A stretch of 64,000 bases of DNA from Candidatus Nomurabacteria bacterium (GTDB lineage: Bacteria; Patescibacteriota; Minisyncoccia; Phycocordibacterales; UBA918). The notes beneath the pieces were generated by a model. It was not told the origin of the DNA and did not search any database. It was given only the letters and a program-made list of their open reading frames with translations. The DNA is taken from assembly GCA_023898565.1 (NCBI GenBank), contig CP060228.1, positions 240,594-304,593 on the forward strand. Direction: 5' to 3'. The translations under genes were made by a program, and so were the position numbers. Each line of letters opens with the position of its first letter. Within the stretch, counting starts at the first letter, position 1. Of this stretch, positions 6,132 to 58,328 are shown piece by piece.

Positions 6132-6208
6132 ATGGTCGGAGTGACTGGATTTGAACCAGTGACCTCTAGCTTTTTACACTAGCGCTCTACCAGGCTGAGC
6201 TACCCTCC
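6132..6208 (-). tRNA. tRNA with encoded CCA; anticodon reads AAA (Phe?), identity uncertain
   Basis: Reverse complement CGGAGGG TA GCTC AGCCTGGTA GAGC G CTAGT GTAAAAA GCTAG AGGTC ACTGG TTCAAAT CCAGT CACTCCG A CCA. It has a C1:G72 pair and a G6.A67 mismatch; U33-AAA-A37 sits in a 7-nt loop. Confidence 0.55.
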
Positions 6209-6287
6209 GTTTGACCATTTCACACGATCGTATTTGCATATTCAAGAAGTTTCTTCGCTACTCAAAATCTATACATGATGTACAGCG

Positions 6288-14452: not shown

Positions 14453-14547
14453 GTTTCAGGTTTGTAATTAATTGGTTGATAATGTGCGTTATTTATTCTA
14501 TATCATTCGCTGCCACCACATCATTTTTGCCCACTTGTCACACAGGT

Positions 14548-15602: not shown

Positions 15603-15663
15603 AATTTCAATGGCACTATGCGCACTGTCATAATTTGTTGAACTCTATCTTTGTTAATCACAT

Positions 15664-37837: not shown

Positions 37838-39790
37838 TTATCTAACCACTGCCCCGTCCCCCTTTTCAAATCCCATTTCGGTTGAGAGTTCAGTTGTAAC
37901 AGCTCCCGCAGAATCTTGCAAGAGCACACCGGTATAGCGATCATTAGCCTTCAAAGACTGCGGTCGCACGAGCACCGGACTAGTTCCAAGCTGAGAGAGA
38001 CTTGGCTGAATGCTCACCTGAAAGGTAAGTTCTTTTCGCTGACCGCGCGTGATGTCACCAATATCCCAAACCATATTTTTTGATACGGTATTGTATGTCA
38101 ATGTACCATCACCTTCGTACATATCGAGCCAGTTAACATAAATCGGCAAGCTAGTCTCCACAATCGCATTCCCGACGTTATTGGCACCAGCTTCAGCCAC
38201 CAGCGTAACCGCGTACGTAGTAAACTCACCAACTTTCGGCGGAATCGGGCCGCTGCCAGTAAAGCTACCGGCGTCCCTGCTTACCTGACTTCTCATTGCA
38301 ACGTGTGATGAGTACTTAGCCTCCGCAGTAACCGAACCAATGAGTGTTTCTTGAGCGCTTGTCTCAGCCACGCGTCTCGCATAGACATTTACCACCATGT
38401 TAAAAAAGGCTTCTGTTCTAAGCGGTCCTGGATTCAGGCTAAAACTAAGTCCGCGCGTATCTCCAGGATTGATTTGTGCAAAGGAAGGATTGTTGGAAAC
38501 TTCCCAACGGACCGTGCCGGTATTTGAGTCATAGAAGCCGTTGCTACTTGCAATCGAATCTTCGTCAAGTGCATTGCCTCCCGGCACCACCTCAACAATC
38601 ATGTCATACACCGATTCTTCAAGCGTATTCTTGATATTAATTCCTACACTAGAACCATCCGCCTCTGGCAAAATGGCAGAACCATCACGATCACCATTGA
38701 TGGAAATTGCCACATCAATAAATGGCCGTTCAATAATAAAATCGGCTCGTGCATCGGTCAGTGTCGATCCGACGAGATACTGGTTGTCTGGATTAGCTGG
38801 ACCCGCTGCAAAATTGATACGGAAGGTTTCATCTGTTAAGCCACGGACAATCCCCCGTAATTTAATGGTGGTGCTAGCTTCCGGCAGCAGCTTATCAATC
38901 TTCCACACATTTTCTCCGTAAATTGGCGCAGGCGTAGATGATTCAAAATCAAATCCATTTGGATACGACGCGGTGATGAGTATATCCTCAAGTGGTGATG
39001 AGGCGTTTGAAACGGCAGTGATGGTTAGGTCGACCCGCTGTCCCGACGCAACTTTTTCAACATTATCTATACGAAGCACTAGTGGCGACGAGCTAATTCG
39101 AAAGGCAAGCGGATTTGCGTCTTTGTAAAACATGCCATTAGAACCGTTAATACGATACTCTACCGAAGCCTCAATCTTTTTCTCAGCGTTTTCTTCACCA
39201 AATACAGCCACTTTGACTGGTACTTTTTGTATTTCCCCCGGACCGACATCATCGAGCGGAATTCGCTCTTCGAATAAATTTCGTGGGGAGTCTCCTACTG
39301 AGCGCGTGCCATTTGGATATCGCAAAATCAAGGTCGCCGATTCAATCGGAACAGTATTTTGGTTGGCCACCAAGACTTCAAGTGACATCACTTCACCACC
39401 ACCAATGAGTGACTGACCTTCAATCGTGACCTGGATATTATCACTGGAAATTTGGTTACCACCAAAATACCAGAACATAGTTGATATAAGCGCCACAAAG
39501 GCAAAAATGAAGAAGCTCCCTAGGAGCACAAAACTACGATAATGCCGTCGCGGTGACTGCACGCTGGGAGCCTCAGACAACCCGGACTCTTCACCAGCAG
39601 CAGCCATACCTTGCCGAAGATCGTTTGTATCGCCACGACGCGCTTGACTGGGCAAGCTCCAATTCCGCGATACATCTACTTTTTCATCGGTCAGCTGGTG
39701 CCGAGCGGCTTTCTCAGCTTCTGCTCCTCGATCATACAGACGCTTACGCATCTCATCGAGATTATCCTGTGATTGTAGTGGCTTCATCAT
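37838..39790 (-). CDS. membrane-anchored large extracellular protein (repeated beta-sandwich domains), hypothetical
   Basis: A cytoplasmic N-terminus and single TM helix are followed by ~550 aa of repetitive beta-rich sequence. Confidence 0.5.
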   Translation of the reverse strand: MMKPLQSQDNLDEMRKRLYDRGAEAEKAARHQLTDEKVDVSRNWSLPSQARRGDTNDLRQGMAAAGEESGLSEAPSVQSPRRHYRSFVLLGSFFIFAFVALISTMFWYFGGNQISSDNIQVTIEGQSLIGGGEVMSLEVLVANQNTVPIESATLILRYPNGTRSVGDSPRNLFEERIPLDDVGPGEIQKVPVKVAVFGEENAEKKIEASVEYRINGSNGMFYKDANPLAFRISSSPLVLRIDNVEKVASGQRVDLTITAVSNASSPLEDILITASYPNGFDFESSTPAPIYGENVWKIDKLLPEASTTIKLRGIVRGLTDETFRINFAAGPANPDNQYLVGSTLTDARADFIIERPFIDVAISINGDRDGSAILPEADGSSVGINIKNTLEESVYDMIVEVVPGGNALDEDSIASSNGFYDSNTGTVRWEVSNNPSFAQINPGDTRGLSFSLNPGPLRTEAFFNMVVNVYARRVAETSAQETLIGSVTAEAKYSSHVAMRSQVSRDAGSFTGSGPIPPKVGEFTTYAVTLVAEAGANNVGNAIVETSLPIYVNWLDMYEGDGTLTYNTVSKNMVWDIGDITRGQRKELTFQVSIQPSLSQLGTSPVLVRPQSLKANDRYTGVLLQDSAGAVTTELSTEMGFEKGDGAVVR

Positions 39791-39813
39791 ATGCTTTTAA
39801 GTATACCACCGCC

Positions 39814-40404
39814 CTAGAGATGACTCGCCTTCACCGCATGGGCATAGAGTTTGGCAATACCAGTTTCAAATGATTTTGCGTATAAGTCTGGAATCTCAAT
39901 CACCGATGCAGCTCGGAGCGATTCTGGTATGTACGTCATGTCTACGTACCCCAACTGTCCCAAAAGCCGCACCTGCACCACCTGCTCTACAAACGTCCGC
40001 TTAGACAGCTTGCCGAGCAGTGATTCAAGTGAGGTTATTACTTCATCAAAAAACTGCGGCTGCGCCTCCTCGCCATGCACAAACCGTCGCAACAGCCGCA
40101 CCAAACTCACTACGCTCCCGCGCGCTTCTTTACTATCCGCTTCATGATAGAAATTTCTAAGCGGCTCAATACTCCCAATCCGCCAACCTGCCTTCCCCTT
40201 TACCAATGACACACGAAGGTAGGTAAAATCCTGCAGTGCATAGCGTTGGCGCGAGCGCTCCTCGCGCACACTGCGCGCATCAGCAAAAAGCATACCGGCC
40301 TCACGGGTAAACAGCAAAAAAGACCGGTCGGCAGTATTCCGGTCTCTCGTGCCACAGACTAATGCTTCGGTTGTGTAGGTTTCGTAGGCCATAAAGTATT
40401 GCAT
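39814..40404 (-). CDS. recO: DNA repair protein RecO (short form)
   Basis: The N-terminal OB fold TEALVCGTRDRNTADRSFLLFTREAGMLFADARSVREERSRQRYALQDFTYLRVSL matches the RecO pattern; start at M9. Confidence 0.6.
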   Translation of the reverse strand: MQYFMAYETYTTEALVCGTRDRNTADRSFLLFTREAGMLFADARSVREERSRQRYALQDFTYLRVSLVKGKAGWRIGSIEPLRNFYHEADSKEARGSVVSLVRLLRRFVHGEEAQPQFFDEVITSLESLLGKLSKRTFVEQVVQVRLLGQLGYVDMTYIPESLRAASVIEIPDLYAKSFETGIAKLYAHAVKASHL

Positions 40405-40407
40405 CTC

Positions 40408-40520
40408 ATTGTCAGTTTCTGCAGGCACGAGTCAAGCTCTCCGCTCGCGACGCGAACCTGTCAAGATGTTGCACATCTGGACAGAACCGCTGCTCCGCGA
40501 GGCCTGCCGAAACTGCCACT
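40408..40520. repeat. palindromic repeat element, copy 2
   Basis: cattgtcagtttctgcaggcacgagtcaagctctccgctcgcgacgcgaacc...gaaccgctgctccgcgaggcctgccgaaactgccactg is the reverse complement of the copy-1 core, with similar termini. Confidence 0.6.
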
Positions 40521-40542: not shown

Positions 40543-43500
40543 TTACACCTTCAAAATCGCAAAGACAAACTCGTAGTCGTCCGCCTGCACACTTTCTCCT
40601 TCTGTCTCAGCGAAGACGAGCTTGCTTGCGCCCACAGTCTTAGTGAGCAGTTCACGATGCAGTTCGATTGCCTGTTGACCAGCTTCATTCGTGGCAATCG
40701 TGAGCGTGACTGCATCGCTCGGCGCAAGACCTTCGGTCTTGCGCCGCCCCTGAATAGCCCGCATCAGTTCACGCACCGCCCCTTCAGCAATGAGTGCTGG
40801 AGTAAGATTTGCATCAATCATTACTGCATTTTCAATGTTTGAATCATGACTAACCATCTTTACGTTAACCTCATCTCTCACAAGAGATTGAAATGGCTCA
40901 TATAAACCACCATTCAAATCTCTAACACGCAACTCATTCAATGGTTGCCGCACTTTAATATTAGTCTTTGACCGATCTTCTAGTGCCATCGTAATTAACT
41001 CTCTAGTCTCTCTCATTTTTAGAATAATTTCCTCATCAACCTCCCCTCCCTCTGGCCACGCGCCGAGGTGCACGCTTTCAGCATCATCGTCTTCTTTCAC
41101 CGCCTGCCAGAGATACTCAGCGTAAAACGGCATGACTGGCGCCATTACGAGCGCGAGCGTCCGGAGCGTGTAGCGGAGGGTAGCGAGCGCTCGGTCTCTA
41201 TCAGCTGCATCGTCGCCTTTAAGACGCTCTCGTGAGCGACGCAAATACCACACCGACAGATCATCAATAAAGTCTGTCAGTGGGCGCACTGCCTTATCAA
41301 GCTCATACTTTTTATATCCTTCGGTCGATTCAGCAATGAGCTGATTGAGTCGCGCAAGCACCCAGCGGTCGAGCACGTGGGTCGAATCATTGGCCGCCGG
41401 CGCTGCAGCAAACATTTGGTACATCGTGAGCACGTTATGCAGCCGACCGATATTCTTGCGCTGCAATTCGAGCACTTCTTTTTCTGAGAAGCTCAAGTCT
41501 TCTCCGCGCACTACTGGTGATGAGAGCAAGTAGAAGCGCATCGCATCAATCCCTACTCGATCAGCCAGCTCCATTGGGTCAGGATAATTCTGCAGCGACT
41601 TCGACATCTTCTTGCCATCTTCGGCGAGCACCAGCCCGTTCACAATCACATTCTCATACGGCGATTTACCAAAGAGTGCTGTGCCAAGCACAATGAGCGA
41701 ATAGAACCAGCCACGGGTTTGGTCGAGTCCTTCAGCAATAAACTGCGCTGGGAAATTTTCAGTCTCAAAGGTGTCCTGGCACGCAAACGGGTAGTGAAAC
41801 TGTGCGTATGGCATCGAACCACTTTCAAACCAACAATCAAACACATCTGGAATACGCTCTATCTTCACGCCATTATCAAAGAGCTCAATATCGTCGATGT
41901 ATGGCCGATGGAAGTCGAGCTCATAGAAGTCGTTGTGCGGCATTGGTGTAAACGGCAGTGCGCGAAGCTCCGCATTCGCGAGGTCATATGAATTATCTTC
42001 GATATGCTTGGCTGCCACCTCCGCACTGTCGCCCTTAGCGACTGCCTGGAGCATCTGCATCGTGCCGTTGTGTGAGACAACGAGCACCTTCTTCCCTTCC
42101 AGCTTTGCATTTACTTCGTAGAGGAATGCACCAGTACGCGTTCGTACATCATTCCAATTCTCACCACCCTCCGGACGCTTCGTAAGCCGGTCCATACCAG
42201 TCTCATAAAATGCGTGGTACTCATCTACCTGCTTCCCTTCAAATTCACCAAACGACATTTCAAGAAGTCGATCATCAGCAATGAGCATATCCGAAGAAAG
42301 CCCAAGTTCGGCCGCGACTGCCTCGGCCGTTTCTTTGGTGCGCTGGAGTGGTGAGTAATAGATATAATCAATGCCGGTTTCGCGGAGCTCAGCCGCCAAA
42401 GCCTTCACCTGCTCCTTGCCAGTTTCCGTGATGCCATTTTCTACCCCGCTCTCACGATTAAGGACCCCTTTGGTATTAAGGGCAGACTCCGCATGACGAG
42501 TAATAAAGAATTGATTTCCGTAATCTGGAACATGTTTTTGTAATTCAGCCAAACTGCCGAAAATCTTAACTTGTCCATTGGCGGTATTACGCCAAATTGG
42601 CAGCGGTGCACCCCAATAGCGCTGCCGGCTAACCGCCCAATCACGAGCACCTTCGAGCCACTTACCAAAGCGATTTTCTCCCACGTGTCCTGGCACCCAA
42701 CCAACAGTATTATTGGCCGCCAAAAGTTGGTCTTTGATTTGTGGCACGTCCACAAACCACGACGTCGTCGCGTAATTAAGCAGCGGTGTGTCACAGCGCC
42801 AACAGTGCGGATAGCTGTGCGAAATCTTCTCCTTCGCAAACAACCGACCACGAGCAGCCAGCGCGCGAATTACCTCGATGTCAGCATCCATATGCGTAAT
42901 GTCACCTTCATCTTTTGGCTTCACGAGCTGCCCAGCAAAATCCGTCACGAAGTCTTCGAAATGCCCCGACTCAGTCACATGATGCTTTACTGGAATACCA
43001 TGCGCCTGCCCCAGCTTCATGTCATCTTCACCATAGGCTGGCGCGATATGTACGATGCCAGTTCCTTCCTCACCGACTTCCACAAAGTCAGCATGGAGCA
43101 CCGTCCAGGCGTGTTCGCCGGCTTCTGCTACTTGCTCGCGCAGCCATGGGAATGGCGGTTCATACTTTTTTCCGAGCAATTCAGAGCCCTTAAGTACTTC
43201 AATTTGATTTGGATAAAAATCAGCAAATACCCCCCAATCACCAGCAGAGTTTGTAATATTTTTTTCTAACTCTTCCCTGTCAAAAAGCTGATCTAAGGCT
43301 GACATCACACTTCTTCCGCTGTTTAGATTCTTCCAGAAAATTTCTTTACTTAAAATGTAAGCACCTGGAGAAACAACAGAAGACTCATCAACATCATCAG
43401 ATTCTGACTTAACCCAAGTTTCAGAAGTTCTGTTTAAGTGTACATTTTTCACTTTCACATACTCAATCTCCTGATTGACCGCGAGCGCCATATTCCCTGG

Positions 43501-44223
43501 CAGTGTCCACGGGGTCGTTGTCCACGCGATAAGTGATGTATTTTCTTCATCTACCAGAGGAAATTCCACAAAGACTGAAATATCCTTGATGTCTTTGTAT
43601 CCAAGGTTTACCTCGAAGTTTGAGAGCGTCGTGCCACAGCGTGGACAGAGATGCATACTCTTAAACCCTTCAAACACCAAGCCCTTATCATGGAGTGATT
43701 TAAATACCCACCACACACTTTCGGTGTAGGTGCTATCCATAGTCTTGTAGTCGTTTTCCATGTCCACAAAGCGACCCATGCGCGGCACAATCTTCCGCCA
43801 ATCATCGGCGTACTCCATCACCGACTCGCGCGCTTCTTCATTAAAATTCTTCACCCCGTAGGTTTCGATGTCACGCTTGGTCGCCAGACCAAGCTTCTTT
43901 TCGATGAGGTTTTCAACCGGCAAGCCGTGACAATCCCAGCCCCACTGTCGCCGCACACGGTAGCCCTGCATGGTCCAAAAGCGTGGCACCGCATCCTTAA
44001 TGGTGCCAGCCAAGATGTGGCCGTAGTGCGGCATACCCGTCGCAAACGGCGGACCGTCATAAAATACGTAGTCACCTTTCGGCGCCCCGCCGGCTGGCGC
44101 CGTCAAACTTTTATTAAAAATATCGTGCTCCTGCCAAAATTCGAGCATCGATTCTTCGCGGAGTGCCACTTCAGACTTCTCCACTTCAACTACCTCAACA
44201 GTATCGTTGTTTTTGTTAGACAT
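40543..44223 (-). CDS. ileS: isoleucyl-tRNA synthetase (type 2) with ~230-aa inserted histidine-phosphatase-like domain
   Basis: HIGH (PHYGHILAG), KMSKS, and the conserved IleRS blocks WTTTPWTLP and AVSRQRYWGAPLPIW...IPDVFDCWFESGS. The insertion between the last two blocks contains FFITRHAES...YYSPLQRTKETA...VLVVSHNG. Confidence 0.85.
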   Translation of the reverse strand: MSNKNNDTVEVVEVEKSEVALREESMLEFWQEHDIFNKSLTAPAGGAPKGDYVFYDGPPFATGMPHYGHILAGTIKDAVPRFWTMQGYRVRRQWGWDCHGLPVENLIEKKLGLATKRDIETYGVKNFNEEARESVMEYADDWRKIVPRMGRFVDMENDYKTMDSTYTESVWWVFKSLHDKGLVFEGFKSMHLCPRCGTTLSNFEVNLGYKDIKDISVFVEFPLVDEENTSLIAWTTTPWTLPGNMALAVNQEIEYVKVKNVHLNRTSETWVKSESDDVDESSVVSPGAYILSKEIFWKNLNSGRSVMSALDQLFDREELEKNITNSAGDWGVFADFYPNQIEVLKGSELLGKKYEPPFPWLREQVAEAGEHAWTVLHADFVEVGEEGTGIVHIAPAYGEDDMKLGQAHGIPVKHHVTESGHFEDFVTDFAGQLVKPKDEGDITHMDADIEVIRALAARGRLFAKEKISHSYPHCWRCDTPLLNYATTSWFVDVPQIKDQLLAANNTVGWVPGHVGENRFGKWLEGARDWAVSRQRYWGAPLPIWRNTANGQVKIFGSLAELQKHVPDYGNQFFITRHAESALNTKGVLNRESGVENGITETGKEQVKALAAELRETGIDYIYYSPLQRTKETAEAVAAELGLSSDMLIADDRLLEMSFGEFEGKQVDEYHAFYETGMDRLTKRPEGGENWNDVRTRTGAFLYEVNAKLEGKKVLVVSHNGTMQMLQAVAKGDSAEVAAKHIEDNSYDLANAELRALPFTPMPHNDFYELDFHRPYIDDIELFDNGVKIERIPDVFDCWFESGSMPYAQFHYPFACQDTFETENFPAQFIAEGLDQTRGWFYSLIVLGTALFGKSPYENVIVNGLVLAEDGKKMSKSLQNYPDPMELADRVGIDAMRFYLLSSPVVRGEDLSFSEKEVLELQRKNIGRLHNVLTMYQMFAAAPAANDSTHVLDRWVLARLNQLIAESTEGYKKYELDKAVRPLTDFIDDLSVWYLRRSRERLKGDDAADRDRALATLRYTLRTLALVMAPVMPFYAEYLWQAVKEDDDAESVHLGAWPEGGEVDEEIILKMRETRELITMALEDRSKTNIKVRQPLNELRVRDLNGGLYEPFQSLVRDEVNVKMVSHDSNIENAVMIDANLTPALIAEGAVRELMRAIQGRRKTEGLAPSDAVTLTIATNEAGQQAIELHRELLTKTVGASKLVFAETEGESVQADDYEFVFAILKV

Positions 44224-44292
44224 AAAATTGTTTGGTTATGTATATCAGACATATAAACCACGTGTATCAGACGTGTTTTGGCATCCTAACAG

Positions 44293-44319
44293 AAAAAGCA
44301 GCTGCTGGGTAGCAGCTGC
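44293..44319 (-). terminator. terminator/attenuator hairpin in the ileS leader
   Basis: On the minus strand gcagctgct accc agcagctgc tttttct lies ~65 nt upstream of the ileS start. Confidence 0.45.
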
Positions 44320-44463
44320 AGTGATTGGAATCAGGCAAGAACAATCCACGAGGGATCAAGACTGGCATCTCCTTCCATCTCTTTTCTCCTTGCATACTCA
44401 GTGGACAACCCGTGAGTTTCTGTTTTTAGCATAACTTGTCCGATGTTTCTGCACAAGCATGTA

Positions 44464-44489
44464 GAAAGGCCGCCCGAAGGGCGGCCTTT
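44464..44489. terminator. bidirectional terminator
   Basis: aaaggccgcccgaagggcggcctttt. Confidence 0.55.
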
Positions 44490-44774
44490 TCGTAGGTGTG
44501 TCCATTCACGCCACCTTAAGCTGACGTACCGAGGCTCGCTCGGCGTGCCACTCAAAATGAGTCACTTCTGCCTTCCGGTGTCGGAGATCAACCACCCCCG
44601 GCGGAAGTGATTCCTCCTCAGAAGCAACACCGTACCAAGCGAACGGGAAGAACCAGACTTGAAACCAGAATGTCGGGGCAAACATGGCGCTCCTCCTCTT
44701 TCTCGTAACAATATAAACCAATGCTTTGTAAAGCGTACCCCCGTTATCTAAAAAACACAAGTTTCTGTAGTGCG

Positions 44775-45878
44775 TTACTCGATCCGCGTTTCAAGCTCTT
44801 TAGGTGCACCAACGACAACCTTCACCTCACGCCGCCCGAGTACTTGCCCGCGCTCAGTCTCAACACTACAGCGCCAAATGCCCGAAGTGAAATTAGCAAT
44901 ACGTGTGTATCCTCCATATCCAGCCTGATTACTCCCCGCAATGGCATACCCGATACGATCACCATACTGTGCCCAATCACCATTTACATCCTTGTATTCC
45001 CAGCGATGGTAAATTGTGGTCGAGAGTTTCGTTGGTGCATACACGCGAGCGAAGCACGCGATTGAACTGTGTGCCGGATGCAGTACATCATCAACAAACG
45101 GTATCTTACGGTACCACGGCTGCAGCTCATAGGTGACGCGATATGACTTACCTCCGTCTGCTGCCATCATCGTATCTACCGACTGCACTACATCAAGCGT
45201 GGTGAGGGAAAGCGGAATGGGCGGAATAATGCTCGTGAAGTAGAAAATGTTGAATAAGACATACACACTCCCAATCGAAAGAATCACCCGTTTGGTATTC
45301 AGCGCCATGAAGTGCGGCACAATACGATACAGAAGCTGCACCACAAAAATCACCAACATAAGTGCAATAAGACCACTGAGCACAAACATGCCATCTCCCA
45401 TCTTGCCGGTTAAGACCGGCAAGACCATAACCACATAAGAAAACAAACCTATAAAATACAATGTAATGTGATAGATCAATTTATCTGATCGCTTTCCAAT
45501 CATTTCATTGCCGAAAATAACGAAGACAATCAGGAGTAAAAATGGAGCGCTCGAAAACCAATCACCGCTACGGCCGTAAAAAATCAACATTCCTGACAGC
45601 AGTCCGCCAAACGCGTACTGCATTATCATCGGACTTGACCAATTAAAAAAGCGCACCAGGAAACGCGGCCCCTTTTCTGATACGCCCACATACAGCAGCA
45701 ACATCGAAATAGTGGCCAAGCAAACATAAAAAAGCAGGATGAGATTATCGAACAAATTATCGATCTGATTCAACAGAATCAGATCAGTCATAAATCCCAT
45801 CACAAACGCGATCGTCAACCAGTGATGTTTCAAAAAATACTCCGTTTTGCGCACAAAGTCTGCCATACTGGGTATCAT
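44775..45878 (-). CDS. polytopic membrane protein with C-terminal extracytoplasmic domain, hypothetical
   Basis: About 8 TM helices followed by a ~130-aa soluble domain. Confidence 0.5.
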   Translation of the reverse strand: MIPSMADFVRKTEYFLKHHWLTIAFVMGFMTDLILLNQIDNLFDNLILLFYVCLATISMLLLYVGVSEKGPRFLVRFFNWSSPMIMQYAFGGLLSGMLIFYGRSGDWFSSAPFLLLIVFVIFGNEMIGKRSDKLIYHITLYFIGLFSYVVMVLPVLTGKMGDGMFVLSGLIALMLVIFVVQLLYRIVPHFMALNTKRVILSIGSVYVLFNIFYFTSIIPPIPLSLTTLDVVQSVDTMMAADGGKSYRVTYELQPWYRKIPFVDDVLHPAHSSIACFARVYAPTKLSTTIYHRWEYKDVNGDWAQYGDRIGYAIAGSNQAGYGGYTRIANFTSGIWRCSVETERGQVLGRREVKVVVGAPKELETRIE

Positions 45879-45914: not shown

Positions 45915-47180
45915 TTATACATACACCTCAGGCACCGGAAACGCTTTGCAAAGCGTCTCTACTTCGTGCTTGATGCGTGCTTTTTCCTCCACGTCATCTT
46001 TTGCCTTGAGGGCTGCCATCATGAGTTCAGCAAGCTTTGTGGCCTCCCCTTCCTTCATGCCACGCGAGGTCATTGCCGGCGTACCAAAGCGAATTCCCGA
46101 CGGATCAAGCGCACTGCGTGTTTCATCGGCAATCATGTTTTTGTTAAGCGTAATACCTACCTCATCCAGCACTGCTTCCGCCTCAGCACCAGTGATACCA
46201 AGCGAACCATAGACATCAGCTAAGAGCAAGTGATTGTCAGTGCCGCCGCCCAGCAAGCGCACACCCGCGTCTTTAAATACCGCTTCCATCGCTTTGGCGT
46301 TCTTCAGTACTTGTACAGCATATATCTTAAAACTCGGCTTGAGCGCCTCACCAAATGCCACCGCCTTTGCCGCAATAATATGCATGTGCGGACCACCCTG
46401 CACTCCTGGGAAGACTGTCCTATTGATTCGCTTGGCGAGCTCTTCACTTTCACGCACTAAAATCATACCGCCTCGTGGGCCACGAAGGGTTTTGTGTGTC
46501 GTAGTGGTCATCACATCAAAACCATAATCGAATGGATTCTTCAGTGCACCACCGGCAATCAGTCCAGCAATGTGTGCCACATCTGCCACCGTGTACGCTC
46601 CCACCTCCCTGGCAATGGCGACAAACTTCGCATAATCGAGCTCACGACTGTAGGCTGAGAAACCAGCCAAAATAATCTTTGGCTTATGTTCTAGCGCGAC
46701 TGCCCTAAGCTCATCATAGTCGATCTCACCCGTCTCGACGTCCTTCATTTTGTAGCGAACGAAGTTGAAGACTTTATTAATACTAGTGGTTGGATGACCG
46801 TGTGTGAGATGACCACCGTGCGAAAGGTCCATTCCCAACACCGTGTCACCCGGCTCCATGAGCGCAAAGTACATCGCCATATTGGCAGCCGCACCCCCGA
46901 GCGGCTGGACATTCGCAAAGCGAGCCTTAAAAAGCTGTTTGGCACGCTCAATAGCGAGCGTCTCCACCACGTCAGTAAACTGCTGACCACCATAGTAGCG
47001 CTTGCCCGGATACCCTTCAGCGTACTTATTGGTAAAGACCGAACCAGCTGCTTCGCGGACTGCTTGTGAAACATAGTTTTCGCTCGGAATAAGCTCCACT
47101 CCCAGCCGCTCACGTTCTTCTTCACCCGTGAGCGCACCAAACACTTCCTTATCTTGTGCCTCAATATGTGTGTACTGCAT
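45915..47180 (-). CDS. glyA: serine hydroxymethyltransferase
   Basis: GGHLTHGHPTT and the PLP-binding TTTHKTLRGPRGG; start at M16. Confidence 0.9.
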   Translation of the reverse strand: MQYTHIEAQDKEVFGALTGEEERERLGVELIPSENYVSQAVREAAGSVFTNKYAEGYPGKRYYGGQQFTDVVETLAIERAKQLFKARFANVQPLGGAAANMAMYFALMEPGDTVLGMDLSHGGHLTHGHPTTSINKVFNFVRYKMKDVETGEIDYDELRAVALEHKPKIILAGFSAYSRELDYAKFVAIAREVGAYTVADVAHIAGLIAGGALKNPFDYGFDVMTTTTHKTLRGPRGGMILVRESEELAKRINRTVFPGVQGGPHMHIIAAKAVAFGEALKPSFKIYAVQVLKNAKAMEAVFKDAGVRLLGGGTDNHLLLADVYGSLGITGAEAEAVLDEVGITLNKNMIADETRSALDPSGIRFGTPAMTSRGMKEGEATKLAELMMAALKAKDDVEEKARIKHEVETLCKAFPVPEVYV

Positions 47181-47255
47181 AGAAAAAAATACTGAATGAT
47201 TAAAGTCGACTTTCACTATAAACACCTACACCATATGCAATGACACTAACCTAAA

Positions 47256-47651
47256 CTAGACCGTTTCAACCCCACCTAAATCCTCGGCCTGAATTAAATG
47301 AGCGTGGTGTATATGTTGTACCAAAAGCTGTGCAATTCTCTCACCAGCAACAAAGGTGCGCGGCTCACTACTCGTATTAAGTAATTCCACTTCAATTTCA
47401 TCGCGATAGCCCGAATCAACAAAACTGTGCGTTACTTTGATGGTATCTTTTGTCACCATTGCATTCTCTCCCCAAATAAGCCCAACATACCCAACCGGCA
47501 TCGCCATCGCCACTCCTGTCGGTATCGTTACTCGTTGCCCTGGAGTAATGGTCACCTCATGTAGTGCGTAGAGGTCAATGCCTGGGCCAGCTTCACTTTC
47601 ATAGGCTGGCAACTTCGCTTCTTCGTGTAGTCGTTTGATAAGAATTTCCAT
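47256..47651 (-). CDS. dut: dUTP diphosphatase
   Basis: Trimeric dUTPase motifs GIDLYA, GLIWGENAM(SG), GYRDEIEV and RIAQL. Confidence 0.8.
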   Translation of the reverse strand: MEILIKRLHEEAKLPAYESEAGPGIDLYALHEVTITPGQRVTIPTGVAMAMPVGYVGLIWGENAMVTKDTIKVTHSFVDSGYRDEIEVELLNTSSEPRTFVAGERIAQLLVQHIHHAHLIQAEDLGGVETV

Positions 47652-47662
47652 ACTATTTAATT

Positions 47663-48322
47663 TTACAACAACGGTCGAATAAGTCCGTATAGCTCGGTAT
47701 TGATATTGTCCTTACTGCGAAGCTTGTCATCCATAAGGCAAGAGACGATTTTCCACTTTTCTAACGCAGCAATACTAGCAGCGCATTTCTGCAGCGACGC
47801 TTGGTAATATTCGTCGGTTTCCGTATGACCGAGATTTGGCTTGCTTTCGTCTGTCGTGAGCAAAGCGTGGCGCATTTCTGCTGGCATATCTAAATACACC
47901 ACCATATCTGGCCGTGGCACCTTGAATACATCGTACTCCAGGCGCTGCAACCACAGCAGAAATGCGCCACGCTTCTCAACATCTGAAATTTTTGCTCCTT
48001 GGTGGAGCATGTTGGCAGTTACATAGCGATCAAGAATGACATGCTTCCCTTCCGCAAGCCAGCCGGCAATCAAATCTTTTGTCTCAAAGCGATCGCCGGC
48101 AAAAAGAATCGCGGCTAAGCGCGGATCAAGCTCAAGAAAATTTCCGTGAACCTCATCAATCCATTCTCTAATATACGATCCAAAAAAACTGTCTTCATAA
48201 CGTGGGAATTCTAAGGTCTCTACGGCAACCCCTTCTCCACGCAGTCGTTCGGCCAAAAGCCTCACTTGCGTTGCCTTTCCAGCCCCGTCTGCTCCTTCAA
48301 TAACGATTAGTTTTCCTGACAT
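47663..48322 (-). CDS. tmk: thymidylate kinase (copy 1)
   Basis: P-loop IVIEGADGAGKAT, DRY motif DRYVTANMLHQG, and lid region. Confidence 0.85.
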   Translation of the reverse strand: MSGKLIVIEGADGAGKATQVRLLAERLRGEGVAVETLEFPRYEDSFFGSYIREWIDEVHGNFLELDPRLAAILFAGDRFETKDLIAGWLAEGKHVILDRYVTANMLHQGAKISDVEKRGAFLLWLQRLEYDVFKVPRPDMVVYLDMPAEMRHALLTTDESKPNLGHTETDEYYQASLQKCAASIAALEKWKIVSCLMDDKLRSKDNINTELYGLIRPLL

Positions 48323-48370
48323 ATCTATCTGAATTTATGGCCTCATGGTACCACAACCCGGACGCTTTAC

Positions 48371-48781
48371 TTAATCAGTTGAATATCGACAGCTTTGTAA
48401 ATCAGCCTGATACAAAATCGCGTCAGGATTCTTCACAAACTTGCCATCCACCAACTGTCCGGTACGTGAATTAATCTCTTTGTACACCTCATCCATCACT
48501 TTGGCTGGGTCATACCCCAGCTTCGCGATTGCTCCCGTTGCAAACACGATAATATCCGCCATGGCATCGACCACCTTTTCAGCCTCTGGCTCAATCTCGC
48601 CCACAATTTCATTCGCTAAACGAAGTGCCTCTTCGCGGCCGCTCACACTATCGTACTTACCAGTGCTTTCTAGCAACTCTTCTGCAATGAATGACACCTC
48701 ATTTTTGAAATGAAATCCACGCTCTAAGAGTCCACGCTCATTATTCCAATCAACAATCTTCTGAAACATACTCATAGGCAA
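48371..48781 (-). CDS. MazG-like all-alpha nucleoside triphosphate pyrophosphohydrolase
   Basis: FQKIVDWNNERGLL...FIAEELLEST...EEALRLANEIVGE...DAMADIIVFA matches the MazG/HisE-like EExxE/D motif pattern. Confidence 0.5.
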   Translation of the reverse strand: MPMSMFQKIVDWNNERGLLERGFHFKNEVSFIAEELLESTGKYDSVSGREEALRLANEIVGEIEPEAEKVVDAMADIIVFATGAIAKLGYDPAKVMDEVYKEINSRTGQLVDGKFVKNPDAILYQADLQSCRYSTD

Positions 48782-48830
48782 AAATTCTGAGATAAATAAT
48801 TCCTATTGTAGCGAGCTGGGACAGAAACGC

Positions 48831-48865
48831 AAAAGGCCGGAATGAGCTTCGCTCATTCCGGCCTT
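48831..48865. terminator. bidirectional terminator
   Basis: aaaaggccggaatgagcttcgctcattccggcctt. Confidence 0.55.
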
Positions 48866-48874
48866 ACTTTACCC

Positions 48875-49531
48875 TTACAACAACACTTGACGCACTGTCC
48901 GATAAATCTCCTCATGAATATCCTCCCGCGCCCGCAACACCCCTTCGACAGTGCAGGCAATTTTCTGCCAGTTATTGAGGCCAGCCACCAGTGACTGTGC
49001 CGCAGTTTCAGTCGCCGTTTGATGCGCTTCGTCGAGCTCTGCCAAATCAAGCGCTTTGCGCGAACCGTCTCCTGCCAATAACCCCTTACGGACCGCAAAT
49101 GGCACCTCTAGGTACATAATGAGATCTGGTCGCGGAATCCCAAACACTCCATGCTCCACCTCATCAATCCAGTTTAGAAAATCAGCACGCTCAGTTTCAT
49201 CAGTAAGCTTTGCCCCTTGATGCAGCATATTCGCGCTCACATACCTATCCGCAATAACCACCGTGCCACCTTCAAGCCATTCACGGATTTGCCCTGATGA
49301 TTCAAAGCGGTCAGCCGCATAGAGCGCCGAGGCGATTCGCGGATCAATCTGCATGAAGTCGCCCCGCTTGCCATCCAGACACTCTCGAATGAGTGCGCCA
49401 AACGTATTGCTACTGTACTTAGGAAAATCAATCGTTTCCACCTTTCTTCCTTCTTGCAACAAACGCTCTTTCAAGAGTGCTACCTGTGTCGCCTTACCCG
49501 AACCGTCACTACCATCGATTACGAAAAACAT
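48875..49531 (-). CDS. tmk: thymidylate kinase (copy 2, paralogue)
   Basis: P-loop FVIDGSDGSGKAT and DRYVSANMLHQG; shares IPRPD and other blocks with copy 1. Confidence 0.8.
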   Translation of the reverse strand: MFFVIDGSDGSGKATQVALLKERLLQEGRKVETIDFPKYSSNTFGALIRECLDGKRGDFMQIDPRIASALYAADRFESSGQIREWLEGGTVVIADRYVSANMLHQGAKLTDETERADFLNWIDEVEHGVFGIPRPDLIMYLEVPFAVRKGLLAGDGSRKALDLAELDEAHQTATETAAQSLVAGLNNWQKIACTVEGVLRAREDIHEEIYRTVRQVLL

Positions 49532-49732
49532 ACTGATATCATCTTTATATCACACCGAATTAACAACCTGCAAAATCACATGCTTTATTTTTCAAAATAG
49601 TAAAAACGAAACACTTATAGCAACTCGTCAATAACAGTAACCAGATTGCTTTTGTTATGTTTGACACAGTTTCGTTCCTTACATGCGAAATGATTGTTAC
49701 AATGGTCTGATTACACCTAAAGGAGCAGGAAT

Positions 49733-50560
49733 ATGAAACAATACCTCGATACACTACGACACATCTACGAGCACGGCACTGATGTCGAGGGTCGCAATGG
49801 CATGACCAGAAAATTGATGGCCGAGCAGATGCGCTTCAATCTGGAGGACGGCTTCCCAGCAGTGACCACCAAAAAACTGGCCTTCAAAGCTGTGAAAAGT
49901 GAGCTCTTGTGGTTTATTGAAGGGACGGGTGATGAGAACCGCCTCAAAGAACTCAACGGCACAAACAACACCATTTGGACTGCCAACGCTGAGGCTGATT
50001 ACTGGAAGCCAAAAGCAAAATTCCCTGGCGACCTCGGCCGTGTCTACGGCGTACAGTGGCGACACTGGCAAAAGCCTGACGGGACGGAAATTGACCAACT
50101 CACGGAAGTGATTGAAAAAATCAAAAAAGACCCAAACGACCGACGTCTGATTGTCACTGCTTGGAATCCAGGCGAGCTCGACCAGATGGCACTCCCGCCA
50201 TGCCACATGACCTATCAGTTTTTCGTTGCCAACGGCAAACTTTCGCTCCACATGACCCAGCGTAGCTGCGACATGTTCCTCGGCGTACCATTCAATATTG
50301 CATCATACTCCCTACTCTTAGCCATGGTTGCACAAGTCACCGATCTCACTCCACACGAATGTGTTCTCACTTTGGTGGATGCGCACATCTACCACAACCA
50401 TTTCGACGCGGTGGAAGAGCAGCTCAAGCGCAACCCACACCCGCTACCAAAGCTCTGGCTGAATCCTGAGGTAAAAAGCATCTACGACTTCACCATGGAT
50501 GACATCAAACTGGAAGATTACCAGCACGATGAAACCATCAGAGCTGAGATGGCGGTTTAA
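49733..50560 (+). CDS. thyA: thymidylate synthase (ThyA)
   Basis: LPPCHMTYQFFV (catalytic Cys) and SCDMFLGVPFNIASYSLL. Confidence 0.9.
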   Translation: MKQYLDTLRHIYEHGTDVEGRNGMTRKLMAEQMRFNLEDGFPAVTTKKLAFKAVKSELLWFIEGTGDENRLKELNGTNNTIWTANAEADYWKPKAKFPGDLGRVYGVQWRHWQKPDGTEIDQLTEVIEKIKKDPNDRRLIVTAWNPGELDQMALPPCHMTYQFFVANGKLSLHMTQRSCDMFLGVPFNIASYSLLLAMVAQVTDLTPHECVLTLVDAHIYHNHFDAVEEQLKRNPHPLPKLWLNPEVKSIYDFTMDDIKLEDYQHDETIRAEMAV

Positions 50561-50563
50561 TAC

Positions 50564-50593
50564 GAAACCGCAGATTTACTCTGCGGTTTCTTT
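50564..50593 (+). terminator. hairpin between thyA and folA (attenuator/terminator)
   Basis: gaaaccgcagatttactctgcggtttcttt. Confidence 0.4.
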
Positions 50594-50619
50594 CTGAAAG
50601 ACACTGCAAGGAACCTACT

Positions 50620-51126
50620 ATGCCTCAACCACCTATTGTTATAGTCACTGCCATGAGTCGCCAGCATCAAGCTATTGGGATGAATAATAGCCTGCTTTGG
50701 CACGTACCAGCAGATCTCCAGCGCTTCAAAGAACTTACCCTAGGACACCCAATCATTATGGGACGGAAGACCTTTGAGTCGATTCTGGCGATTCTTGGCA
50801 AGCCACTACCAGGCCGCACCAATATCGTCGTTACTCGCGACGAAACGTATCGATACAACACCGCTAAGATCGCTCACTCCCTCGAAGAAGCAATTACTAT
50901 TGCAAATGAGGAGCAACCAGCTGAAATTCACATCGGCGGCGGCGCTGAGCTCTATCGTCAAGCAATTCCGCTTGTGAGCAAACTACATGTGACTTGGTTT
51001 GACAATGAGCCCGAAGCCGACACGTTCTTCCCTTCGTTTCTCGATGAGTTTATTGAAACAGCGATTTATGAGCCGCAAACTCATGAAGGCGTCACGTTTC
51101 AATGGGTTGATTACGTACGGGAGTAA
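50620..51126 (+). CDS. folA: dihydrofolate reductase
   Basis: IVIVTAMSRQHQAIGMNNSLLWHVPADLQRFKELTLGHPIIMGRKTFESI is a DHFR signature. Confidence 0.85.
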   Translation: MPQPPIVIVTAMSRQHQAIGMNNSLLWHVPADLQRFKELTLGHPIIMGRKTFESILAILGKPLPGRTNIVVTRDETYRYNTAKIAHSLEEAITIANEEQPAEIHIGGGAELYRQAIPLVSKLHVTWFDNEPEADTFFPSFLDEFIETAIYEPQTHEGVTFQWVDYVRE

Positions 51127-58291: not shown

Positions 58292-58328
58292 AGAATTCAG
58301 GATAATTCAGAATTAATTCGTAATACGT

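What the first reader, a model, noticed from the sequence alone, without database searches (positions are those of the whole stretch)
41850..42550. Isoleucyl-tRNA synthetase carries an inserted histidine-phosphatase (PGAM-like) domain inside its catalytic core
In most IleRS proteins the stretch between the conserved blocks '..SRQRYWGAPLPIW..' and '..PDxxDxWF(D/E)SGS..' is a short linker (~60 aa in E. coli). Here it is ~230 aa and contains FFITRHAES...YYSPLQRTKETA...LLEMSFGEFEGK...VLVVSHNG. These match the RHG-type catalytic His motif, the 'SPLxRA'-type second motif and the C-terminal His motif of the phosphoglycerate-mutase/histidine-phosphatase superfamily. An in-frame phosphatase module within an essential aaRS is not a standard architecture. 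It could be an editing or regulatory accessory, a phosphatase acting on nucleotide products, or a domesticated insertion.
Basis: partly seen in the sequence, partly recalled or inferred. Interest (0 to 1): 0.75.

Follow-up and report, generated by a model that had tools for sequence, protein, structure and literature searches.

The report
Phosphatase domain nested inside isoleucyl-tRNA synthetase
The enzyme that loads isoleucine onto tRNA in this tiny-genome (CPR/Parcubacteria) bacterium carries a complete, apparently working phosphatase inside its catalytic core; this is standard for its whole lineage and was briefly noted in 2013, but nobody knows what the phosphatase does.

Summary
The 1226-aa ORF at 40543-44223 (-) is a type-2 isoleucyl-tRNA synthetase (IleRS). 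A ~206-residue insert (residues 564-769) holds a histidine-phosphatase domain (Pfam His_Phos_1, E = 5.7e-35). The insert sits in the CP3 subdomain, whose two anchor points line the pocket that binds the tRNA CCA end.

It is not a rarity. When the search query had the insert deleted, all 120 closest IleRS relatives (Kaiserbacteria, Nomurabacteria, Paceibacteria) still carried the domain. An exhaustive search found over 100 clusters with it at the same site. Kantor et al. 2013 mentioned a similar IleRS in an SR1 genome.

Among 121 relatives the insert is variable (43% mean identity against 70-85% for the host). The catalytic residues R576, H577, N583, R628, E655 and H718 never change. The AlphaFold model is confident (pLDDT 95.8) and matches small phosphatases (PspA, PhoE) better than mutases.

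ValRS of other CPR lineages acquired such domains separately, mostly at the same CP3 site.

Best reading: an active, probably broad-specificity phosphatase that works independently of tRNA charging. This is inference (confidence 0.45); the substrate is unknown. Coupling to the tRNA acceptor end or to nucleotide ligands cannot be excluded. It is a new member of a known but uncharacterised architecture.

The parts
40543..44223 (-). ileS coding sequence: type-2 (eukaryote/Thermus-like) isoleucyl-tRNA synthetase, 1226 aa including the nested phosphatase
   Evidence: ORF. TIGR00392 849 bits; Pfam tRNA-synt_1, Anticodon_1 and DUF5915. Best solved relatives are human, yeast and T. thermophilus IleRS.
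44017..44028 (-). HIGH signature motif (HYGH, residues 66-69)
   Evidence: HxGH is intact in 121 of 121 close relatives.
43201..43431 (-). Region of the CP1 editing domain (residues ~265-341) that holds ~35-40 residues absent from nearly all relatives
   Evidence: Column occupancy in A4. The distance from WTTTPWT to GTGxVH is 146 aa here, typically 88-95 in relatives, and at most 124 in any other. pLDDT is below 50 at residues 261-285 and 301-338.
42610..42648 (-). CP2-CP3 linker ARDWAVSRQRYWG (residues 526-538). Its yeast equivalent lines the tRNA CCA-end / reveromycin pocket.
   Evidence: Direct reading of the sequence against yeast 453-ARDWNVSRNRYWG-465 in PMC7955072.
42535..42609 (-). N-terminal remnant of CP3 (residues 539-563): two beta-strands plus the start of a helix, ending GSLAELQK
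   Evidence: Alignment to human IleRS stops at residue 563. AF2 predicts strands at query positions 3-6 and 12-14 and a helix at 18-22.
41917..42534 (-). The insert (residues 564-769): His_Phos_1 domain plus a ~35-aa C-terminal extension that leads back into CP3
   Evidence: Gap relative to human IleRS. The site is fixed across the family: the domain starts 25-37 aa after WGxPxPxW and ends 27-48 aa before HRPYID.
42025..42507 (-). Pfam His_Phos_1 (PF00300) match, residues 573-733
   Evidence: E = 5.7e-35. AF2 pLDDT is 94-98 across the domain. Foldseek best hits are PspA and PhoE.
42493..42498 (-). Catalytic Arg576-His577 (RHAES; the His is the phospho-acceptor)
   Evidence: Invariant in 121 of 121 close relatives and at least 90% conserved in 150 distant ones.
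42475..42477 (-). Asn583, a phosphate-pocket residue
   Evidence: Invariant in A4.
42340..42342 (-). Arg628 (SPLQRTKETA), the second catalytic Arg
   Evidence: Invariant in A4 and A3.
42259..42261 (-). Glu655 (LLEMSFG), the presumed proton donor
   Evidence: Invariant in A4 and at least 90% conserved in A2 and A3.
42070..42072 (-). His718 (VVSHNG), the second catalytic His
   Evidence: Invariant in A4 and A3.
41839..41916 (-). C-terminal remnant of CP3 (residues 770-795, DFHRPYIDDIELFDNGVKIERIPDVF)
   Evidence: Alignment to human IleRS resumes at residue 770. Mean pairwise identity is 0.75 among relatives.
41815..41850 (-). PDVFDCWFESGS (residues 792-803), the start of the second Rossmann half. 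The yeast equivalents Asp527 and Trp529 contact the CCA-site ligand.
   Evidence: PMC7955072.
41596..41610 (-). KMSKS signature motif (residues 872-876)
   Evidence: KMSK[SK] or KLSKK is present in 121 of 121 relatives.

Best explanation
The gene encodes the organism's housekeeping type-2 IleRS. A complete branch-1 histidine-phosphatase domain has been grafted into the CP3 subdomain of its catalytic core.

Shown: the synthetase keeps all its own signature motifs. The phosphatase keeps the full catalytic set (Arg576-His577, Asn583, Arg628, Glu655, His718). It folds with the CP3 remnants into one confidently predicted unit. It is present in every close relative.

Inferred: the domain is a working phosphomonoesterase of the compact PhoE/PspA/CobC type, not a phosphoglycerate mutase. 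It most likely acts on its own, in trans, on one or more small phosphorylated metabolites with loose specificity. On this view CP3 is a permissive surface loop of a constitutively expressed essential protein, and the phosphatase takes no part in amino-acid activation, transfer or editing. Once the lineage's only copy of a needed phosphatase was locked inside ileS, it could not be lost.

Confidence in the architecture and in an intact catalytic apparatus is about 0.95. Confidence in the 'autonomous small-molecule phosphatase' step is about 0.45.
For: - Domain identity: Pfam His_Phos_1 E = 5.7e-35. AF2 pLDDT 95.8 and pTM 0.92.
- Fold: Foldseek best hits are PspA 4ij6 (TM 0.73-0.77) and PhoE 1h2e (rmsd 2.4 A), then Rv2419c, HFP and CobC. 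The dPGMs listed have lower TM, about 0.57-0.65, except the small S. pombe enzyme 1FZT at 0.74.
- Sequence: closest to PspA (8e-16), PhoE, TIGAR and fructose-2,6-bisphosphatases. Canonical dPGMs are not detected.
- Active enzyme: 6 catalytic residues are invariant in 121 relatives while the domain averages only 43% pairwise identity.
- No conserved interface: host domains are 70-85% identical while the insert surface evolves fast. The pocket-shaping loop 586-598 and the cap 656-687 are the most variable parts (0.26 and 0.33 identity, with indels).
- Charge: the domain is acidic in the window protein (pI 5.0, net charge -8) and has no consistent charge across the family.
- Extra copies elsewhere: additional copies lie at other sites in IleRS (the anticodon-domain region in P0105, between DxWFESG and the QTRGW motif in P0118) and on the CP1/CP2 side in ValRS. 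Position near the active site is therefore not required.
- General tolerance: CPR IleRS also carry unrelated inserts (GNAT, AAA_18/AAA_33 P-loop, IS200 transposase, and Nudix per Kantor 2013).
- Not needed for class-Ia charging: the MetRS in this window and the Nomurabacteria ValRS hit (931 aa, no PF00300) lack it.
- The host is functional: HIGH and KMSKS are intact in 121 of 121 relatives.
Against: - No activity or substrate has been measured.
- The same CP3 site was used independently in IleRS and in ValRS: 72 of 87 ValRS copies are there, and ValRS inserts score no closer to IleRS inserts than free-standing phosphatases do. Both CP3 anchor points line the CCA-end pocket. This could reflect a function that needs that location, not just a tolerant loop.
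- The predicted rigid packing on CP3 (pTM 0.92) is more than a passive tether would need.
- A variable specificity cap would also be expected if the synthetase itself delivered the substrate.
- I could not obtain model coordinates or a usable full-length model, so the distance and orientation between the two active sites are unknown.
- I could not inventory a whole genome to see whether this is the only His_Phos copy.
Confidence: 0.45

Rival explanations
1. Coupled accessory site. The phosphatase works together with the synthetase on something bound at or next to the aminoacylation pocket. Candidates are a tRNA acceptor end carrying a 2'/3'-terminal (pyro)phosphate that blocks charging, an adenine-nucleotide by-product (AMP, Ap4A-type), or a phosphorylated adenylate-mimicking inhibitor. 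The IleRS body provides recognition, so the phosphatase only needs to see a terminal phosphate.
For: - The insert lies in CP3, and both anchors (ARDWAVSRQRYWG and DCWFE) correspond to yeast residues that line the CCA-end pocket.
- Independent acquisition at the same CP3 site in IleRS and ValRS.
- A rigid CP3-phosphatase unit.
- Retention throughout the clade with invariant catalytic residues.
- A variable specificity cap, consistent with recognition being outsourced to the host.
- Other nucleotide-directed domains (Nudix, P-loop kinase) occur in CPR IleRS.
- The best NCBIfam phosphatase hit is the RNase H/acid-phosphatase fusion family, a precedent for pairing this domain with a nucleic-acid enzyme.
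Against: - No step of aminoacylation or editing produces a phosphomonoester other than AMP.
- There is no reason why only tRNA-Ile (or tRNA-Val in other lineages) would need end repair.
- The domain is acidic and has no conserved surface patch outside the catalytic pocket.
- Extra copies occur far from the active site.
- The MetRS in this window and a ValRS from Nomurabacteria, a related lineage, lack the domain.
Confidence: 0.28
2. Embedded glycolytic enzyme. The domain is the lineage's missing phosphoglycerate mutase (a short dPGM-type enzyme), which HMM-based metabolic reconstructions miss because it is hidden inside ileS.
For: - Jaffe et al. 2020 report PGM apparently absent from several shallow Parcubacteria clades, possibly because the enzymes are too divergent to detect (PMC7304191).
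- The insert hits the 194-position archaeal short dPGM model at 84.6 bits and the small S. pombe dPGM 1FZT at E = 2e-7.
- No separate mutase was found in the 64-kb window.
Against: - All mutase equivalog models score far below cut-off: dPGM_arch 84.6 against 225, GpmB 44.6 against 261, PRK01295 35.6 against 316.
- Phosphatases are the better match in both sequence and fold.
- The segment after Glu655 reads EMSFGEFEGK. From my recollection of the dPGM literature, the mutase motif there is ERHYG..NK, and the RR motif and C-terminal tail are also missing.
- The pocket-shaping cap is poorly conserved (0.33 identity, with indels), which is unlike an enzyme tuned to 2,3-BPG and 3-PG.
- 64 kb is too small a sample to claim a mutase is absent from the genome.
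Confidence: 0.1
3. Non-catalytic module. The fold is kept only as a structural, docking or regulatory element (a pseudo-enzyme), or it acts as a protein phosphatase that regulates IleRS or a partner.
For: - Histidine-phosphatase folds are used as protein phosphatases elsewhere (PGAM5, Sts-1, SixA; my own knowledge).
- The predicted rigid integration with CP3.
- The P0067 ValRS protein matches NCBIfam sixA above its cut-off, though with no single stretch passing on its own.
Against: - A pseudo-enzyme would not keep all six catalytic residues invariant across 121 relatives (at least 90% conserved across 150 more distant sequences) while the rest of the domain drifts to 43% identity.
- No conserved surface exists for a protein partner.
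- No kinase is encoded next to ileS in the conserved neighbourhood.
Confidence: 0.07

Closest known systems
The 'unusual isoleucine-tRNA synthetase' of candidate phylum SR1 (RAAC1_SR1_1 and ACD80), Kantor et al. 2013, mBio, PMC3812714
   Same: It is a CPR IleRS interrupted in frame by phosphoglycerate-mutase-family (His_Phos) domains. It was reported as an oddity with no function assigned.
   Different: The SR1 protein is described as split into four regions by one Nudix domain and two PGAM domains. The window protein has a single His_Phos in CP3 and no Nudix. The window organism belongs to the Parcubacteria/Paceibacteria group, not SR1.
Compact free-standing histidine phosphatases: PspA phosphoserine phosphatase (4IJ5/4IJ6), PhoE/YhfR (1H2E/1EBB), CobC alpha-ribazole phosphatase, Rv2419c
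   Same: Same fold, size and catalytic residues. These are the best sequence and structure matches.
   Different: Those are independent ~200-aa proteins. None of their NCBIfam equivalog cut-offs is reached: PspA 74 against 350, CobC 86 against 163. Substrate specificity therefore cannot be transferred.
Bifunctional RNase H / acid phosphatase (Rv2228c / RnhC family, NCBIfam NF005567)
   Same: A CobC-like histidine phosphatase joined to a nucleic-acid enzyme. It is the top-scoring phosphatase model for the insert, at 88 bits.
   Different: That family is an end-to-end fusion, not a nested insertion. The score is far below the cut-off of 326, and the partner enzyme is different.
IleRS with an added N-acetyltransferase domain (NCBIfam NF040702 ileS_w_GNAT)
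   Same: An IleRS that carries an extra small-molecule-modifying enzyme domain. This shows IleRS is a recurrent host for accessory enzymes.
   Different: The accessory domain is different (GNAT). The window protein scores 327 bits against a cut-off of 1999, so it is not a member.
The CP1 editing domain of class Ia synthetases
   Same: A hydrolytic domain nested inside the Rossmann-fold catalytic domain through a connective-polypeptide insertion.
   Different: CP1 is universal in IleRS, ValRS and LeuRS, and it acts on the aminoacyl ester of the enzyme's own tRNA. The His_Phos insert is restricted to certain lineages, lies in CP3, and has no demonstrated link to the tRNA.
ValRS with 1-4 His_Phos inserts in Gracilibacteria and Peregrinibacteria (e.g. 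P0067, P0280-P0297)
   Same: The sister class-Ia synthetase hosts the same domain type, mostly at the homologous CP3 site.
   Different: The host enzyme and the lineages differ. The inserts are no closer to the IleRS inserts than free-standing phosphatases are (median 95 bits against 85-105), so the acquisition was probably independent.

Membership tests
Histidine phosphatase superfamily, branch 1 (Pfam PF00300) | Profile match above the curated threshold | tested here: met
   121.2 bits against a cut-off of 21.7, E = 5.7e-35, residues 573-733.
Histidine phosphatase superfamily, branch 1 (Pfam PF00300) | RHG-type motif holding the phospho-acceptor His and its neighbouring Arg | tested here: met
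   R576-H577 in FFITRHAES. Invariant in 121 relatives. The third position is G or A.
Histidine phosphatase superfamily, branch 1 (Pfam PF00300) | Second Arg, second His and acidic proton donor that complete the phosphate pocket | tested here: met
   R628, H718 and E655, plus N583, are all invariant in A4.
Histidine phosphatase superfamily, branch 1 (Pfam PF00300) | Alpha/beta fold of the superfamily | tested here: met
   AF2 pLDDT 95.8. Foldseek probability 1.00 to PspA, PhoE, dPGMs and others.
Histidine phosphatase superfamily, branch 1 (Pfam PF00300) | Phosphoryl-transfer activity through a phospho-histidine intermediate | not testable with these tools
   Needs enzymology on the wild type and the H577A mutant.
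Cofactor-dependent phosphoglycerate mutase (GpmA / dPGM) | Score above the equivalog thresholds | tested here: not met
   dPGM_arch 84.6 against 225, GpmB 44.6 against 261, PRK01295 35.6 against 316. Canonical dPGM chains are absent from the PDB sequence hits at E <= 0.001.
Cofactor-dependent phosphoglycerate mutase (GpmA / dPGM) | Distal-substrate binding motifs (ERHYG..NK, RR) and a C-terminal tail. The motif definitions come from my own recollection of the dPGM literature. | tested here: not met
   The sequence reads EMSFGEFEGK after Glu655. There is no RR motif. The C-terminus runs straight back into CP3.
PspA-type phosphoserine phosphatase (NF045917) | Equivalog threshold | tested here: not met
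   74.2 bits against a cut-off of 350, although PspA is the best solved relative.
CobC alpha-ribazole phosphatase (TIGR03162) | Equivalog threshold | tested here: not met
   85.7 bits against a cut-off of 162.9.
Isoleucyl-tRNA synthetase (TIGR00392), type 2 | Equivalog threshold for the whole protein | tested here: met
   849.3 bits against a cut-off of 621.4. The best PDB hits are type-2 or eukaryotic IleRS at E = 1e-193 to 1e-211, against 4e-85 for type-1 S. aureus IleRS.
Isoleucyl-tRNA synthetase (TIGR00392), type 2 | HIGH and KMSKS class-I signatures, the CP1 editing motif, the anticodon-binding domain and the C-terminal domain | tested here: met
   HYGH 66-69, KMSKS 872-876 and WTTTPWT 234-240. 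Anticodon_1 and DUF5915. The motifs are intact in 121 of 121 relatives.
Isoleucyl-tRNA synthetase (TIGR00392), type 2 | Sole, functional IleRS of the genome | not testable with these tools
   Only 64 kb is available, and it holds no second ileS (ORF list).
Mupirocin-resistance IleRS MupA / MupB (NF000257 / NF000258) | Exception-level threshold | tested here: not met
   634 and 663 bits against a cut-off of 1900.
CPR IleRS interrupted by PGAM-family domains (architecture noted by Kantor et al. 2013) | In-frame His_Phos domain splitting the IleRS catalytic region in a CPR bacterium | tested here: met
   The closest relatives are Parcubacteria-group CPR.
CPR IleRS interrupted by PGAM-family domains (architecture noted by Kantor et al. 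2013) | An additional Nudix domain and a second PGAM domain, as in the SR1 protein | tested here: not met
   Pfam finds one His_Phos and no Nudix. No Nudix box occurs in any of the 398 related sequences held.

The most novel reading that the evidence does not exclude
Class Ia synthetases of CPR bacteria have gained a third catalytic site. A phosphatase is mounted rigidly on CP3 at the rim of the CCA-end pocket and works on a ligand presented by the synthetase. One example would be removing a 2'/3'-terminal phosphate or pyrophosphate from the tRNA acceptor end, which would repair tRNA or counteract a toxin. Another would be destroying a phosphorylated adenylate-type by-product or inhibitor. The independent capture of such domains at the same CP3 site by IleRS and ValRS would then be convergent evolution of a new quality-control or repair step in tRNA charging.
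Probability: 0.15. Interest if true: 0.85.

Novelty: new member of a known kind. Interest (0 to 1): 0.5.

Why it matters
**An open question.** An apparently active enzyme has been locked inside the catalytic core of an essential translation enzyme across a large part of the Candidate Phyla Radiation. ValRS has independently done the same. Yet the literature searched here contains only one sentence on it, from 2013.

**If the phosphatase is autonomous.** It is a clear example of how minimal genomes bolt metabolic functions onto essential, constitutively expressed scaffolds. It also shows that CP3 is a tolerant site for grafting domains into a class-Ia synthetase.

**If the phosphatase is coupled to charging.** It would be a new kind of accessory activity in tRNA aminoacylation.

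**A practical consequence (inference).** Domain-based metabolic reconstructions of CPR genomes could count this ileS gene as a phosphoglycerate mutase or phosphatase, or could miss a real activity hidden in it. NCBI names several of these proteins only 'class I tRNA ligase family protein'.

Tried and rejected
- **Misleading first search.** The first word-index homology search with the insert returned only nine hits. Five were short IleRS fragments, two of them with both PF00133 and PF00300 annotated, which wrongly suggested rarity. The exhaustive HMMER search and the insert-deleted query corrected this.
- **Full-length model uninformative.** The AF2 model of residues 1-1190 with 62 close relatives gave pLDDT 70.5 and pTM 0.60, and even the IleRS core scored low. 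It says nothing about how the phosphatase is oriented relative to the synthetic site. The tools also return no coordinates, so site-to-site distances could not be measured.
- **Single versus multiple insertion events.** The insert-versus-host distance correlation is positive but weak (Mantel r = 0.33, 0 of 2000 permutations reached it). Insert identity is no lower between the two IleRS HIGH-region subtypes (FATG-type and TANG-type; 0.33) than within them (0.32, 0.36). The signal is saturated, so this test is inconclusive.
- **Recent duplication of the extra copies: rejected.** Copies within one protein are about 26% identical, whereas orthologous copies in different proteins reach 42-55%.
- **Recent horizontal acquisition or assembly chimera: rejected.** GC content matches the flanks. 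The junctions are the same in four genomes, one of them a closed chromosome. The domain is universal among relatives.
- **Intein or mobile element: rejected.** There are no such domains in the insert.
- **Nudix box search.** None was found in the 398 related proteins held.
- **Upstream leader RNA or T-box.** No Rfam hit came near its gathering score.
- **Gene neighbourhood.** ileS, a recO-like gene and a DUF11 gene are syntenic in all four genomes, but this is uninformative about the phosphatase.
- **Literature.** Searches found nothing beyond Kantor 2013.
Full report

Yes. The minus strand carries one uninterrupted ORF at 40543-44223 that encodes 1226 aa. Pfam finds tRNA-synt_1 (E = 1.4e-136), Anticodon_1 and DUF5915. 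Nested inside the synthetase match it finds His_Phos_1 at residues 573-733 (E = 5.7e-35, 121 bits against a cut-off of 21.7). NCBIfam calls the protein ileS, at 849 bits against a cut-off of 621.

The best solved relatives are type-2 or eukaryote-like IleRS: human 9w01, yeast and Candida enzymes, and T. thermophilus 1ile. In the alignment to the human enzyme, query residues 563-770 correspond to only residues 490-498. The insert is therefore about 206 residues (564-769; window 41917-42534). Its GC content is the same as that of the flanks.

**2. Where in the enzyme is it?**

Structural papers on yeast and Candida IleRS define CP3 as yeast residues 459-526 (Candida 473-534). CP3 is a small subdomain that varies between IleRS types: it has a zinc motif in Thermus and three helices in S. 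aureus. The yeast CP2-3 linker 453-ARDWNVSRNRYWG-465, together with Asp527 and Trp529 just after CP3, lines the pocket that binds the tRNA CCA end and the inhibitor reveromycin A (PMC7955072 and PMC7191050).

The window protein has ARDWAVSRQRYWG at 526-538 and DCWFE at 796-800. The phosphatase is therefore nested within CP3, between its beta-hairpin and helical parts, and both anchor points sit at the CCA-end pocket. That last step is my inference from sequence correspondence, not a measured geometry.

**3. Is it a one-off?**

No. The first word-index search suggested rarity, returning five short IleRS fragments, but that was a sensitivity artefact.
The junctions are identical in all of them.
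- An exhaustive HMMER search of 1.84 billion representatives gave 103 hits at E <= 1e-30. Most of the best 150 match the whole 260-aa query in one stretch at about positions 450-770 of 1100-1200-aa proteins.
- Of 154 sequences, 139 carry at least one IleRS flank motif. The site is fixed: the domain starts 25-37 aa after WGxPxPxW and ends 27-48 aa before HRPYID.
- When I deleted the insert from the query, so that ranking depended only on the synthetase, all 120 best hits (60-86% identity) carried PF00300. The named ones are Kaiserbacteria, Nomurabacteria, Paceibacteria and Parcubacteria, and several sit on 0.6-1.05-Mb contigs.

In this lineage the insert is the normal state of IleRS.

Kantor et al. 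[quoted passage not shown] I found no later work on it.

**4. Is the phosphatase likely to be active, and of what kind?**

- *Conservation.* Among 121 close relatives the His_Phos core averages only 43% pairwise identity, while the host domains average 70-85%. Even so, N570, R576, H577, N583, G602, R628, A633, E655, E688, R696 and H718 are invariant. These include the complete catalytic set of the superfamily. The same residues are at least 90% conserved across 150 sequences that are 29-49% identical to the query. This is the signature of selection on catalysis, not on a surface.
- *Fold.* An AlphaFold2 model of residues 541-800 is very confident (pLDDT 95.8, pTM 0.92), including the linkers. 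The phosphatase and the CP3 remnants are therefore predicted as one compact unit. Foldseek places it closest to PspA phosphoserine phosphatase, PhoE, Rv2419c, a riboflavin-pathway phosphatase and CobC (target TM 0.72-0.77). The cofactor-dependent mutases are further away at about 0.57-0.65, apart from the small S. pombe enzyme 1FZT at 0.74.
- *Sequence.* A search of the PDB with the insert alone gives the same order. Canonical dPGMs are not detected.
- *Family thresholds.* No NCBIfam equivalog threshold is reached, whether for a mutase, PspA, CobC or GpmB. The substrate cannot be inferred by homology.
- *Specificity regions.* The two regions that shape the substrate pocket in this superfamily are the loop 586-598 and the cap 656-687. 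They are the least conserved parts (0.26 and 0.33 identity, with indels).

**5. Is the host still a synthetase?**

Yes. HxGH and KMSK[SK] (or KLSKK) are intact in 121 of 121 relatives. The editing-domain motifs are present.

The gene lies in a conserved housekeeping neighbourhood. ileS, a recO-like gene and a DUF11 gene are syntenic in all four genomes, with glyA upstream in two of them. The window also holds MetRS, TatD, dut, two tmk genes, thyA, folA, ribonucleotide reductase, FtsK, RecA, EF-P and NusG. There is no other His_Phos copy or mutase in the window. The window's MetRS has no insert.

**6. The wider pattern.**

- Some IleRS carry two His_Phos copies, either in tandem within CP3 or at other sites.
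- P0131 has an added AAA_18/AAA_33 P-loop domain. P0094 has an IS200-type transposase segment and a GNAT domain.
- P0067 is a ValRS with four copies.
- In a set of 120 ValRS relatives, mostly from Gracilibacteria and Peregrinibacteria, 71 carry one to four His_Phos domains, and 72 of the 87 copies lie at the homologous CP3 site.
- These ValRS domains score against the IleRS-insert profile (median 95 bits) no better than unrelated free-standing phosphatases do (85-105 bits). The acquisitions appear to be independent.
- The extra copies are old paralogues, not recent duplications.

**7. Mechanism.**

*Shown:* a functional-looking IleRS with a nested histidine phosphatase that is intact at every catalytic position and is retained throughout the clade.

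*Inferred as the best explanation (about 0.45):* the phosphatase is an autonomous, loosely specific phosphomonoesterase that acts on small metabolites, and CP3 serves as a permissive loop of an essential, constitutively expressed scaffold. Five observations favour this:
- the domain's surface and specificity regions evolve fast;
- its charge is acidic or inconsistent across the family (pI 5.0 here);
- extra copies occur far from the synthetic site;
- unrelated enzyme domains also accumulate in CPR IleRS;
- the MetRS in this window and the ValRS of a related lineage (Nomurabacteria) lack the domain.

*Main rival (about 0.28):* coupling to something bound at the CCA or adenylate pocket. Three observations support it: CP3 was used convergently in two synthetases, both anchors sit on the CCA pocket, and the predicted mounting is rigid. 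A variable cap would also fit if the host delivers the substrate.

*Third reading (about 0.10):* a hidden phosphoglycerate mutase. Jaffe et al. 2020 noted that PGM seems absent from several Parcubacteria clades. However, the sequence, the fold and the motifs all point to a phosphatase, not a mutase.

*Fourth reading (about 0.07):* a purely structural pseudo-enzyme, or a protein phosphatase. The invariant catalytic residues make the pseudo-enzyme version unlikely.

I could not discriminate further. The tools return no coordinates, the full-length model was poor, and whole genomes were out of reach.

**8. Verdict.**

The claim that the architecture is non-standard is wrong for this lineage and has been anticipated in the literature. 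This is a new member of a known but uncharacterised architecture. Interest is moderate, because the function of a conserved and probably active enzyme inside an essential synthetase remains an open and readily testable question.

Noticed in passing
window 43201-43431 (-), IleRS residues ~265-341: The CP1 editing-domain region holds ~35-40 residues that almost none of the 120 closest relatives have. The distance from WTTTPWT to GTGxVH is 146 aa here, typically 88-95 in relatives, and at most 124 in any other. AF2 confidence is below 50 in this region.
   Followed up: partly
P0067 and P0280-P0398: ValRS of Gracilibacteria, Peregrinibacteria and related CPR carry 1-4 His_Phos domains, mostly at the homologous CP3 site. 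They appear to have been acquired independently of the IleRS inserts. Related ValRS proteins, including the one from Nomurabacteria, lack them.
   Followed up: partly
P0131, P0094, P0105, P0118, P0113, P0151, P0120: Other CPR IleRS variants exist. P0131 has an AAA_18/AAA_33 P-loop (kinase-like) domain between DxWFESG and the QTRGW motif. P0094 has an IS200 Y1-transposase segment in the editing domain plus a C-terminal GNAT. Several proteins have second His_Phos copies, in tandem or in the anticodon-domain region.
   Followed up: partly
L001 4591-8064; P0015; several proteins: Some insert-bearing IleRS have altered HIGH motifs: HSGS in L001, HVGN in P0015, and a PGIHH ('GxHH'-like) form in one IleRS subtype. 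The last recalls the altered-motif, mupirocin-hyper-resistant IleRS2 described in PMC10485003 (title and abstract seen).
   Followed up: no
window 45918-51123 and 56612-59660: A cluster of thymidylate and deoxynucleotide metabolism genes: glyA, dUTPase, two thymidylate-kinase paralogues (47666-48334 and 48878-49549), thyA, folA, and both ribonucleotide reductase subunits (the small subunit has an ATP-cone).
   Followed up: no
window 13904-16215 (-): Three tandem ~185-197-aa paralogues with weak PsbP_2-like matches (E = 8e-5 to 7e-4, all below Pfam's cut-off).
   Followed up: no
window 44224-44777, compared with L001-L004: All four related genomes have a 571-597-aa ORF immediately upstream of ileS. 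The window lacks it and has a 550-bp non-coding gap there, containing a terminator-like hairpin (44298-44319) and no significant Rfam match.
   Followed up: partly
window 6133-6209 (-): ARAGORN calls a 77-nt tRNA-Phe with the unusual anticodon AAA (at position 35), next to tRNA-Val(CAC). This may be a miscall or an atypical tRNA.
   Followed up: no
window 37841-40431 (-) and L001-L004: The gene order ileS, recO-like (RecO_N only, ~200 aa), then a ~620-650-aa DUF11-repeat protein is conserved in all four related genomes.
   Followed up: partly
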